From an uncultured bacterium (lineage in GTDB: Bacteria; Armatimonadota; Abditibacteriia; Abditibacteriales; Abditibacteriaceae), in contig CAWJLW010000010.1 in the NCBI GenBank assembly GCA_963843795.1, positions 62,001 through 126,000 of the forward strand: 64,000 nt of DNA, read 5' to 3'. This document shows, piece after piece, positions 1-3,000 of this stretch. The position numbers are program-made. Numbering within the stretch: the first letter of the stretch is position 1; each line of letters begins with the position of its first letter.

Positions 1-3000
1 TAACGTGCTGGCAATAATCTAATCTATATACTTAATCTTGCTGTTAAATCGAGATAAATTAAATCAATTATTGCACAGTCATTTTCGGTTCACTGCAAAA
101 AGGTTTTTAAAGGAGTGCTACGTCATGTTTCTAAACAGAGAAGTCGAACTTTCACCCGCTGAAGCTAACACTTCATTACCACGCCAGACCATTCAGTTCA
201 AAAAAGGTTTTACCTTGATCGAGCTTTTGGTCGTCATCGCCATAATTGCGATATTGGCGTCGATTTTGTTTCCGGTTTTTGCACGCGCGCGCGAAAATGC
301 GCGGCGCACAACGTGTTTAAGCAACTTGAAGCAACTTGGTTTGGGAATGATGCAGTACACACAGGATTATGATGAAAAGTTTCCGCAGCCTCATAGTACT
401 TCTGGGAGTTACGGTAACTTCCAATATTTCCGTCCCTTTCCACCTAACGCAGTTAGCGGCACATTGAACCCGGCATATGACACGACGTGGGCTGCGGTAT
501 TGCTACCTTATACCAAAAGTCCGCAGATTATGAGTTGTCCTTCGCAGCAGTCGCTCGATTGGTATACCAACACTTCTACTTTCGCAATTAAGATGCCGGT
601 AAGCTATACCTACAATCGATTGCTGGCATGGCATAAAATGTCTGTAATGGCGCAACCCACGACTTTGGTAATGATGCACGAGGCTTTCGGCCAGCAAGCA
701 TGGACGAGCGCGGTAACTTCGTATCCTCATATGAATGGTGGGACTGATGATTCCGTATATGGCCCAACAAAGCCTTACAGCTATAATCAGTCTGGAGGCT
801 GCGTTTGGTATACGGGTTTTTCAGGGGAACCGGAGTGGTCGTTTACCAAAATTCATAAAGCACTAGCAGCTTTTTATATGCTGATGGTCATGTAAAAGCG
901 ATTAATCCGTTTGGTGGATTTCCCCATCCGTACGCCAGAGCTACACCAGATGGAGGAGTTGCTTCGCGTTGGGTATACGCTGATGGCTGTACTGCTCTGT
1001 GGGTTCCCGAGGCTGATCCTTCCTAAAGAAGACAATAAAAGTTCTGGTTTGGAATTCTTGTAAAAGAGTTCTAAATCAAGATGTAATCAAAATCAAGAGA
1101 GGATTTTTATGCATATCAAAGTTTGGAAGCGCTTGTTTCAACTTTCAATTGCCACGATCGCAGCAATTTTAGTGACAGGTTGTTCAAGTTCTCAGGAAGC
1201 TCCAGTCAATGCTGAGACTTCTGCTGGCAATTCAAATAATGTCAGCTTGCAACAGGAGAAGGGCGCAGCACCTGATCCAAAGATGCGCGAACTCAAAGAT
1301 TAATTACGCAGTGTTCTTAAGAGACTTGCACATAATACGAAATACCCGGCTTGGATTGAAGTCGGGTGTTGTAGTGTGTCACGATTCACAATTTCGTTAA
1401 CTCACACTCACGTCAAAAATCCAATAAGCCTCCTGCAAGTACTTGCAGGAGGCTTATTGGTTTTCATCTACAATTTAAACGCCGCTCAGAGCGACGCCGT
1501 TGGTTTCATAGCCGTTGGGATTGTAGCCGGGCAAAGCGGTGTGGGCATTGGCAGCGTTAGCAGCCAGCACGTCCTCGACTTCGCTCACCGAAATGTTGCC
1601 GTTATCGGGCTTGGTAATATCGGGAGTGAAAGCGGTGACTTCATGCGCCATGCGTGTGGGCAACATCGTCGTGCCATTGTCGTATTCCAGTCCGCGACGC
1701 AGCACACAGGTTTCGATTTCCTGAAGGCCGAAAGCCTCACTGAGATATTTGCAGGTCAGAACGGGATCGAATTCCTTGCAGGAAAATACGTCGATAGCGA
1801 CTTCGCCACGTTCGGGAAAAGTGTGAACCGAAATGTGCGATTCGGCGATCATCACAAAACCGCTGATGCCCCAATCTTCGGGCGAAACGCCGACGTAGCG
1901 GGTGACCATCGGCGGCATAATTTTCGTCATGTTGATGCGGCCCGGCAAGGTGTCGAGCAGATCATATAAAGCGGGCAAATCTTGCAACTTGTGCCAGTCG
2001 CCGCGACGTCCTTCAATTACCAAATGCATTGTGGCTGCCTCCTTAGCAGTTGGCAGGGCTTTGTGGCCCCAGCCAAAACCAGCCCGACCGTGGAAGAATC
2101 GAAACCCTTTTCGCGCTGCTTGCATTGCGAAAATTTCTGTTCCGAAACTTTTTCTTACCGGGCCACACTCCTTTCGCGACTATAGAAAATAAACGCTCCC
2201 GCGCCGCGTGACGGGAAACATCTTCTCGACCTTTACAGCAATTTTGTGACACCAACGTGAACGACGTTGTGAACGACGTTATGAACGACGTTTCGCCGAT
2301 TTCCAAAGTCGAAAACGTATATTTTGGGTCACAAGAAAAGTCACACCAAAAAGGGCGTGACTTGATTGCGAACACGACGTTTTTCCGGCTGGTTTGCGGC
2401 AGAAATTAAAGCATAGCAATCGATGCATAAAATCACAATGCGTTGCCTATTTATTTCCAATTTATTTTTGTGATTACAGTCCTCCGTCCGCGCTGCAAGT
2501 ACTTGCAGCGCACGGGCGGAACATCAAAAGTGGCTCAAACGTCGAGACCAAAGCAAATAAGAGGTTAGACTGGAATCATCATGGCTTTTTCTTTTGATCG
2601 TTCGCGTTTAGTAGGAATGCTGGTCTTTTCAGGACTCGCTTTAGTGGGCGTCTGGATAGTATCCGCGCCCACGATTTCGCAAGCACAACCGGCCACGACG
2701 CCTGCTGCCGCGCCCGCCAAAGGCAACGGCGCGATTCGCATTCGCAACGATAAAGCCAATGGCACGGCGTTTGTTGACTTGAAAAACGGAGTGCGTCGTT
2801 TAACCAAAGATGTCGTGGTGACCCAGGAAGGCGAAGATTTCATCTTGTATGCCGACGAACTCACGCACTACGAAAAGCAAAACGTCGCTATTGCGCGTCC
2901 TGTGGCCAACCAAACTCTGCGCGTTGAAAGCCGGGATTCCACCATTACGGGAAAACTGATTCGCGCCGATTTTGACAGCAAAACAATCACCATTACGCAA

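What a model noticed while it worked through the whole genome (the two positions that open the first line are those of the whole stretch)
2029..2182. New cis-regulatory RNA motif upstream of the SpeD-type arginine decarboxylase: polyamine riboswitch candidate
A ~150-nt leader (minus strand) before the SpeD-like gene g03421 has fixed blocks CGCGAAAGGAGYGUGGCCCGGU, then a variable hairpin, then GUCGGGC, GGGGCCACAACGUCCC and the Shine-Dalgarno. It is likely a riboswitch sensing agmatine, homospermidine or arginine that controls the first step of homospermidine synthesis. It would be a new polyamine-sensing RNA class.
Evidence so far: Blocks present in 21/21 family leaders examined (19 fetched of 25 relatives with the gene, plus G000 and G020), spacer 49-100 nt; absent in the one other-family genome. 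GCCCG pairs with UCGGGC across the spacer in 3 of 4 leaders folded (182). No credible Rfam match in 10 leaders at E<=10 (176). Single copy in G000 (185). Gene in 25/26 relatives, spermidine synthase in 4/26 (166, 167); SpeY and SpeB homologs on C10.
(Added by a program. Inside this text positions count along the whole contig: contig position 62,001 is position 1 of the stretch shown here. "Call 12" and the like, gene names such as g00115 and contig names such as C1 are that model's own, and its searches are not shown. The text may have been shortened before it was handed on; [...] marks where a part breaks off. The agent that wrote the report below was given it as the finding of a first reader that could run no searches.)

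Follow-up and report, generated by a model that had tools for sequence, protein, structure and literature searches.

The report
Folded leader with startless ribosome site
In front of a gene that likely makes the first polyamine precursor, one family of bacteria keeps an undescribed, conserved RNA leader predicted to fold into a pseudoknot and hairpins around a strong ribosome-pairing sequence with no start codon behind it, so it likely works by catching ribosomes, and polyamines would tune that step (untested).

Summary
The motif is real and larger than reported. Its three cores occur in 26 of 26 Abditibacteriaceae leaders picked by the protein and in 27 metagenome loci. They always precede the SpeD-like gene where it can be seen, once per genome, and were not found outside the family. 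New anatomy: a covarying 5' pseudoknot (to 2218), a covarying 3' hairpin, a weak hairpin over the true SD, and a terminator-like hairpin upstream (46 of 53). The key point is that the purine block pairs with the genome's own 16S 3' end in 53 of 53 leaders (7-11 bp). It beats the true SD in 46 of 52 and has no usable start codon. It reads as a ribosome-catching site (STAB-SD/standby type), not clearly a ligand pocket. No Rfam family matches. Arginine-decarboxylase identity is well supported by gene context. Polyamine sensing is plausible but untested, and no secondary-structure switch was found. This scan noted startless-SD speD leaders before, in other genomes; a look-up with this sequence found no look-alike.

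The parts
2410..2438 (-). Probable sigma70-type promoter (TTGTGA-17-TATGCT)
   Evidence: A TTG-N-TAnnnT pattern lies upstream of the terminator in 32 of 43 distinct leaders and between terminator and motif in 0 of 43. The stock scanner's stricter rule does not list it. Inferred.
2333..2361 (-). Upstream terminator-like hairpin plus U-run. Most relatives carry a conserved, covarying insert of about 45 nt in its loop; the window has only the bare stem
   Evidence: Present in 46 of 53 loci. Found by the terminator scan. 94% of cells paired, 9 pairs with two-sided changes. Insert single-copy in 20 of 23 family genomes. Role unexplained.
2196..2218 (-). Hairpin P0, variable in sequence; its loop carries the 5' pseudoknot strand
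   Evidence: A hairpin with a free six-base loop strand was found in 47 of 49 leaders without looking at the partner. Poorly aligned by MAFFT (46% of cells paired).
2203..2208 (-). Pseudoknot 5' strand (CGCGGC)
   Evidence: 255 of 282 cells paired; pair 5 is G-C in 29 and A-U in 13; G-U 26 versus A-C 2. 92% paired, 4 of 6 pairs with two-sided changes.
2175..2180 (-). Pseudoknot 3' strand (GTCGCG)
2163..2174 (-). Startless strong Shine-Dalgarno-like site (AAAGGAG-T-GTGG), predicted to pair with the 16S 3' end over 11 bases with one base bulged
   Evidence: Duplex -11.2 to -13.3 kcal/mol in 53 of 53. The only start-like triplet within 18 nt lies one base after GGAG, inside the paired stretch. 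Background 3.8% of 500 upstream windows.
2157..2163 (-). Helix P2, 5' strand (GCCCGGT)
   Evidence: Invariant pairs, 97% of cells paired; dominant in the ensemble.
2095..2156 (-). A-rich loop of about 9 nt and variable hairpin P2b
   Evidence: A hairpin folds in the spacer of all 51 distinct leaders listed; 7 of 7 base pairs with two-sided changes. Length varies freely modulo 3.
2082..2088 (-). Helix P2, 3' strand (GTCGGGC)
   Evidence: 26 of 26.
2050..2076 (-). Hairpin P3 with conserved C-A-(C/A)-A-A loop
   Evidence: 89% paired, 5 of 9 pairs with two-sided changes. A G-C to A-U change in a transcribed relative (run X3, places 2073 and 2053).
2035..2049 (-). Weak hairpin over the true Shine-Dalgarno
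   Evidence: At or below -2 kcal/mol in 36 of 50. In the other 14 the SD follows P3 within a few bases or is paired by an extension of P3. Mean cost to open the ribosome site 7.1 kcal/mol.
1475..2029 (-). SpeD-family pyruvoyl decarboxylase, 184 aa, likely arginine decarboxylase (SpeDA)
   Evidence: PF02675; below the AdoMetDC equivalog cut-off; context.
1421..1460 (.). 18-bp palindrome after the gene, probable terminator
24902..25846 (+). SpeY / deoxyhypusine-synthase-like gene (matched part), same pathway, unlinked, no motif in front
   Evidence: no significant model hit there.
28914..29693 (+). Agmatinase-family gene (matched part), same pathway

Best explanation
This is a conserved 5' leader of a likely arginine decarboxylase gene, predicted to fold with a strong startless ribosome-pairing site held between a pseudoknot and a helix; the small ribosomal subunit likely binds there, and polyamine levels would gate that binding. 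Shown: conservation, covarying helices, complementarity to the 16S tail, absence of a start codon, and a predicted weak hairpin over the true ribosome site. Inferred: a 30S subunit parked on the site shields the mRNA from RNase J and stands by for the structured true site, which helices P2 and P3 bring close. Inferred, weakest: when homospermidine or agmatine is plentiful, the invariant P2 helix and the P3 loop dock and hide the site or stiffen the true-site hairpin, lowering enzyme synthesis as feedback.
For: 16S complementarity is kept in both sequence variants of the block. In 38 of 53 it is AAAGGAG-N-GUG, where the one free base (U 27, A 7, C 4) is the bulged one. In 15 of 53 the upstream As are lost and a G follows GGAG, restoring 7-9 continuous pairs. 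The energy stays within -11.2 to -13.3 kcal/mol. The variants need 3-4 changes on bootstrap trees. Such startless sites are rare in this genome, 3.8% of 500 windows. RNase J is present in 5 of 5 genomes. RNA contigs of a close relative from two studies begin 15-20 nt before P0 and run into the gene (weak hint). Precedents: STAB-SD (PMC4113751, passages) and pseudoknot-dependent standby in tisB (PMC7708055, abstract). The gene is the only arginine-decarboxylase candidate found beside SpeY, so feedback at this step is logical.
Against: No binding, toeprint or reporter data. Occupying the upstream site does not consistently change the predicted cost of opening the true site (mean +0.02 kcal/mol; up in 15, down in 18 of 49). 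The strand-swap fold is negligible at equilibrium (p about 0.01). Purine-rich junctions of aptamers can resemble SD sequences, and the starred tree branches do not rule out one origin of the second variant. 16S pairing does not explain the invariance of P2 or of the P3 loop. Only this genome's 16S tail was used. The motif is found before one gene only, so gene association cannot point to a ligand. The upstream terminator is not accounted for.
Confidence: 0.4

Rival explanations
1. A classical metabolite-binding riboswitch: the purine block, P2 and the P3 loop form a pocket for agmatine, homospermidine or arginine, and binding closes the true ribosome site. The SD likeness is incidental.
For: Pseudoknot plus invariant helix and loop bases, a variable stem looped out, and the core abutting the ribosome site match the usual look of aptamers. 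A spermidine riboswitch exists before speD-type genes (PMC10853860, parts 1-2 and passages).
Against: Both variants of the purine block preserve 16S pairing rather than sequence. No conserved anti-SD strand or alternative fold was found. One gene, one family, one copy. No match to SAM-I, SAM-VI or guanidine-I at the locus.
Confidence: 0.25
2. A constitutive stabiliser and translation enhancer: a STAB-SD-type 30S site plus a pseudoknot that block 5'-to-3' decay and set a fixed expression level, with no sensing.
For: Startless strong SD about 110-175 nt before the start codon; RNase J present; RNA contig ends just 5' of P0.
Against: STAB-SD as described needs only the SD-like sequence (PMC4113751, passages). 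The invariant P2, the P3 loop and the conserved SD hairpin would be surplus.
Confidence: 0.2
3. An operator for an RNA-binding protein (ribosomal protein S1, the enzyme itself or an unknown regulator) that recognises the pseudoknot or the P3 loop and represses translation.
For: A conserved short loop and GGA motifs in two places; a similar GGGC/GUCC stem base recurs in the upstream terminator insert.
Against: CsrA not found in 5 of 5 genomes. No regulator gene next to the locus. G-U versus A-C asymmetry and variable spacing exclude a DNA-level operator.
Confidence: 0.1
4. A leader peptide or frameshift signal sensed by a translating ribosome.
For: Polyamine genes are often controlled by upstream reading frames (odc1 motif, PMC8632094, passages). 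The window has a 32-codon in-frame extension from 2125.
Against: No start codon at usable spacing in 53 of 53, and distances spread over all three frames, 21/13/18. Frames through the upstream terminator differ between close relatives.
Confidence: 0.04

Closest known systems
STAB-SD of Bacillus thuringiensis cry3A (PMC4113751, passages)
   Same: SD-like sequence in a long 5' leader that pairs with 16S without directing initiation; RNase J present.
   Different: Here the site is embedded between a covarying pseudoknot and an invariant helix, followed by a conserved-loop hairpin and a sequestered true SD. 30S binding and stabilisation are untested.
tisB ribosome standby site (PMC7708055, abstract; PMC6690012, passages)
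   Same: 5' pseudoknot, then a single-stranded stretch about 100 nt or more before a structured ribosome site.
   Different: tisB standby depends on S1 and a single-stranded region and is controlled by an antisense RNA. Here the stretch is a strong 16S complement and the gene is metabolic.
Spermidine riboswitch, SAM-I variant (PMC10853860, parts 1-2 of 9 and passages)
   Same: Structured leader of polyamine synthesis genes including speD.
   Different: Four-stem SAM-I fold, terminator output, Gram-positive genera. No SAM-I model match at this locus, and the only terminator here lies upstream of the motif.
ldcC motif (PMC5737381, passages)
   Same: Orphan motif before arginine, ornithine or SAM decarboxylase genes, possible pseudoknot.
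   Different: Described as one bulged hairpin in Firmicutes and two spirochaetes. No Rfam hit here; its alignment could not be read.
odc1 motif (PMC8632094, passages)
   Same: Pseudoknotted leader of the first polyamine enzyme, with the ribosome site in a stem.
   Different: Alphaproteobacterial, with two start codons and a conserved 11-residue peptide. No upstream frame is conserved here.
Upstream-RBS occlusion in Sinorhizobium (PMC13285730, abstract)
   Same: A ribosome held upstream affects the main site.
   Different: Those sites have start codons and lie close to the main site.

Membership tests
SAM-I clan / spermidine riboswitch | Match to the SAM-I four-stem aptamer model | tested here: not met
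   RF00162 gave no hit at the locus in 5 genomes at E<=10; Rfam scans.
SAM-I clan / spermidine riboswitch | Terminator downstream of the aptamer | tested here: not met
   The conserved terminator lies 80-200 nt upstream of the core; P3 and the SD hairpin lead straight to the start codon.
Guanidine-I (ykkC) fold | Match to RF00442 | tested here: not met
   0 of 5 genomes at E<=10.
SAM-VI | Match to RF02885 at either element | tested here: not met
   Only weak hits elsewhere in 5 genomes.
ldcC motif | Consensus sequence and single bulged hairpin | tested here: inconclusive
   No Rfam hit, but that ldcC is in Rfam is recalled; supplement unreadable; text description differs.
odc1 motif | Conserved upstream start and short peptide | tested here: not met
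Riboswitch (general) | Conserved, covarying structure in the 5' leader of a metabolic gene | tested here: met
Riboswitch (general) | Alternative fold that couples the core to expression | tested here: inconclusive
   Strand swap possible in sequence (50 of 50) but not populated; no consistent coupling. Tertiary coupling not modelled.
Riboswitch (general) | Selective ligand binding without protein | not testable with these tools
   Needs in-line probing or calorimetry.
STAB-SD-type element | 16S-complementary sequence in the leader with no start codon | tested here: met
   53 of 53.
STAB-SD-type element | 5'-to-3' exonuclease RNase J in the host | tested here: met
   5 of 5.
STAB-SD-type element | 30S binding stabilises the mRNA and sets a processed 5' end | not testable with these tools
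   Only contig ends, a weak hint.
tisB-type standby site | 5' pseudoknot and single strand upstream of a sequestered ribosome site | tested here: met
   (predicted structure).
tisB-type standby site | S1-dependent 30S loading needed for translation | not testable with these tools
   Needs toeprinting.
SpeDA arginine decarboxylase | SpeD fold with processing Ser, His and Cys | tested here: met
   S64, H69, C84 invariant in 18 aligned proteins; PF02675.
SpeDA arginine decarboxylase | Genome with SpeY and no SpeE partner, or cluster with speY | tested here: met
   SpeY in 19 of 19 family genomes. No SpeE match in G000. The two family genomes with strong SpeE have a second SpeD beside it. G027 operon.
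SpeDA arginine decarboxylase | Diagnostic residues separating it from ornithine and SAM decarboxylases | tested here: inconclusive
   The positions are given in a figure of PMC10407285 that is not held; the text says SpeDA is barely separable by sequence.
SpeDA arginine decarboxylase | Activity on L-arginine | not testable with these tools
   Needs an enzyme assay.

The most novel reading that the evidence does not exclude
A polyamine-sensing RNA switch whose output is the exposure of a startless ribosome-catching site, coupling homospermidine or agmatine levels to ribosome loading and RNase J decay. Similar startless sites noted by this scan in other speD leaders would make it a convergent, so far unrecognised way bacteria regulate polyamine synthesis.
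Probability: 0.3. Interest if true: 0.85.

Novelty: new variant of a known kind. Interest (0 to 1): 0.62.

Why it matters
Only one polyamine riboswitch class is validated (PMC10853860), and how the agmatine/SpeY route to homospermidine is regulated did not turn up in the searches made. This leader gives 53 natural variants with a defined structure and a sharp prediction, 30S binding at a startless site, testable in days. It also shows that a conserved purine block in a riboswitch candidate can be a ribosome-pairing site rather than a ligand pocket.

Tried and rejected
Rfam scans of the window, 13 family loci and one short leader: only chance hairpin hits. Recalled resemblances to SAM-I, SAM-VI and guanidine-I were tested and failed. 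The G027 leader has no Rfam or model match. A leader peptide through the upstream terminator or the motif was rejected. CsrA was rejected. The strand-swap switch is possible in sequence but not populated. An anti-SD exchange between the two SD sites is inconsistent across leaders. A first pseudoknot count chose partners by pairing and was circular; it was replaced by a blind anchor, which dropped L003 (gap of Ns) and found no anchor in 2 leaders, and mis-registered about 5 that were still counted. 44 of 71 metagenome pattern hits had neither the 5' block nor the gene and were treated as chance; the 2 viral hits scored at noise level. Invariance of the two 3' blocks in metagenome members is built into the search pattern, so invariance counts use only the 26 protein-selected leaders. 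A test for startless SDs in 72 distant homologues was uninformative because many start codons were mis-set. RNA contigs have low depth, cannot show strand or ends, and lack a silent-region control, so uncovered parts prove nothing.

Full report
Observation. On the minus strand the three blocks lie at 2157-2179, 2082-2088 and 2056-2069, before an ATG at 2029 that opens a 184-residue SpeD-family protein. A protein search of 61 genomes found the close orthologue in G000 and 25 of 26 family genomes; record titles name the family Abditibacteriaceae. The cores AGGAG-N4-GCCCG, GTCGGGC and GGGYCAMAAHGYCC are in 26 of 26 of these leaders, while third codon positions average 57% identity, so this is not recent ancestry.

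Distribution. A metagenome scan for the two 3' blocks gave 71 hits. 27 also had the 5' block (26 by the strict pattern, one a variant). 24 of these have a detectable downstream match at 82-95% identity, two more show the gene's first codons at a contig end, and one ends five bases after the match. The other 44 had neither block nor gene. Covariance models of the 5' and 3' halves hit once per genome in the family (one duplicate next to an assembly gap, one weak extra hit at E 0.01). The one family genome lacking the gene lacks the motif. The 3' model hit 0 of 137 other genomes of the phylum. Neither model hit significantly in the 74 more distant speD loci or in G027.

Structure. The element starts about 40 nt earlier than reported. 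A variable hairpin P0 displays a six-base loop strand that pairs with the six bases just before AAAGGAG, an H-type pseudoknot. With the loop strand chosen without looking at its partner, 255 of 282 cells pair. Pair 5 is G-C in 29 and A-U in 13 leaders, no shuffle of 10,000 reached the score, and non-Watson-Crick cells are G-U 26 times against A-C twice, which points to the mRNA strand. Shuffles ignore kinship and overstate significance. On a MAFFT alignment of 34 full leaders the pseudoknot is 92% paired with 4 of 6 pairs changing on both sides. P2 is 97% paired but invariant, P2b and P3 covary, and slid controls fall to about half. The true SD sits in a weak hairpin in 36 of 50 leaders with two stem types; in the rest it abuts P3 or pairs with its extension. 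The window leader alone folds only modestly better than shuffles (z -1.4), so the case rests on comparison.

Upstream element. 46 of 53 loci carry a terminator-like hairpin 80-200 nt before the core, usually with a conserved, covarying insert that the window lacks. A promoter-like pattern lies upstream of it in 32 of 43 and between it and the motif in 0 of 43, so the mRNA probably reads through it. One clade of 7 loci lacks it and has a promoter pattern 105-210 nt before the purine block, so the motif does not depend on it. Its role is unexplained.

The purine block. The genome's own 16S end was read from G000 and paired with each leader. In 38 of 53 the block pairs over 11 bases with one bulged base, and that base is the one that varies (U 27, A 7, C 4). 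In 15 of 53 a different sequence gives 7-9 continuous pairs. All energies fall between -11.2 and -13.3 kcal/mol, stronger than the true SD in 46 of 52. The only start-like triplet within 18 nt sits one base after GGAG, inside the paired stretch. Startless sites this strong occur in 3.8% of 500 upstream windows of G000. The two variants need 3-4 changes on bootstrap trees of 44 coding sequences, though one origin is not excluded. I infer selection for pairing with the ribosome.

The gene. SpeY is in 19 of 19 family genomes tested. G000 has no spermidine-synthase match; 6 of 18 relatives have one, of which two are strong and lie beside a second SpeD. In five genomes no pyruvoyl-type or fold-I arginine decarboxylase passed the cut-off, and the single fold-III hit, checked in G000, is best called LysA. 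In G027 the 73%-identical orthologue heads an operon with SpeY, a carbon-nitrogen hydrolase and a deiminase-family gene. This is the arrangement described for SpeDA (PMC10407285, parts 2-4 of 7) and for the agmatine route to homospermidine (PMC13625781, passages). Activity is inferred.

Mechanism. Most likely (0.4) a 30S subunit binds the startless site, protecting the mRNA from RNase J, which is present in 5 of 5 genomes, and standing by for the structured true site. The invariant P2 and P3 loop would then gate this in response to polyamines. RNA contigs of a roughly 95%-identical relative from two rhizosphere studies cover 1949-2224 and end 9-14 letters further, just 5' of P0. None of their 14 differences touches an invariant block. 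This is a weak hint without a control. Against: no consistent secondary-structure coupling between the two sites, a negligible strand-swap state, and no explanation from 16S pairing for P2 or the P3 loop. Rivals are a classical aptamer (0.25), a constitutive stabiliser (0.2), a protein operator (0.1; CsrA not found) and a leader peptide (0.04).

Known systems. It fails model tests for SAM-I, SAM-VI and guanidine-I and has no credible Rfam match. It works most like STAB-SD (PMC4113751, passages) or tisB standby (PMC7708055, abstract; PMC6690012, passages) without being shown a member of either. Searches that found no description of it. They cover open-licence papers and preprints only, and the supplement of PMC5737381, which holds the ldcC alignment, could not be read. 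The scan's own notes report startless-SD speD leaders in other genomes. A look-up with this sequence found no look-alike. Those notes are unchecked and not counted as support. My 16S test was launched in the same turn as the first of them; the STAB-SD comparison came from one of them.

Verdict. A real, undescribed, family-restricted structured leader. Cis-regulatory function is very likely, ribosome capture likely, and polyamine sensing open. Interest 0.62.

Noticed in passing
L136, L138, L141, L144, L146, L155, L158, L174, L180, L181, L185, about 2200-2485: A different, strongly conserved leader of about 250 nt before the speD-like gene in 11 of 11 deltaproteobacterial loci picked for it (several titled Desulfobaccales or Syntrophobacterales). 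It has an invariant pyrimidine block that looks complementary to the SD region, a likely anti-SD switch. No credible Rfam match in the 6 scanned.
   Followed up: partly
L113:2300-2500 and L121:125-325: Chloroflexota speD-like leaders with strong SD-like sites about 88 nt before the gene and no start codon at usable spacing. L113 has short look-alikes of this motif's blocks but no model hit.
   Followed up: partly
window 2333-2361 and relatives, e.g. L022:1479-1563: The conserved insert inside the upstream terminator is single-copy and family-restricted, lost in G000 and degenerate in a few genomes. It could be a small RNA of 70-140 nt or a second control element.
   Followed up: partly
window 1421-1460 and 2485-2515: The same palindromic core around a GCAAGTACTTGC centre occurs after the gene and upstream of the promoter; possibly a dispersed repeat of this genome.
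   Followed up: no
window 1475-1670: The enzyme has a C-terminal tail of about 65 residues with a motif shared by family members and absent from shorter homologues; possibly regulatory.
   Followed up: no
window 2240-2290: Three tandem copies of a short AACGTCGTTC unit between the terminator and P0, seen only in this genome's leader.
   Followed up: no
L102:1-3500 (G027): Operon of speD-like, speY, hydrolase and deiminase genes with a long leader of about 370 nt that matches neither this motif nor Rfam.
   Followed up: partly
G000:C6:154970-155788: A second ureohydrolase with an N-terminal extension, below the agmatinase cut-offs.
   Followed up: no
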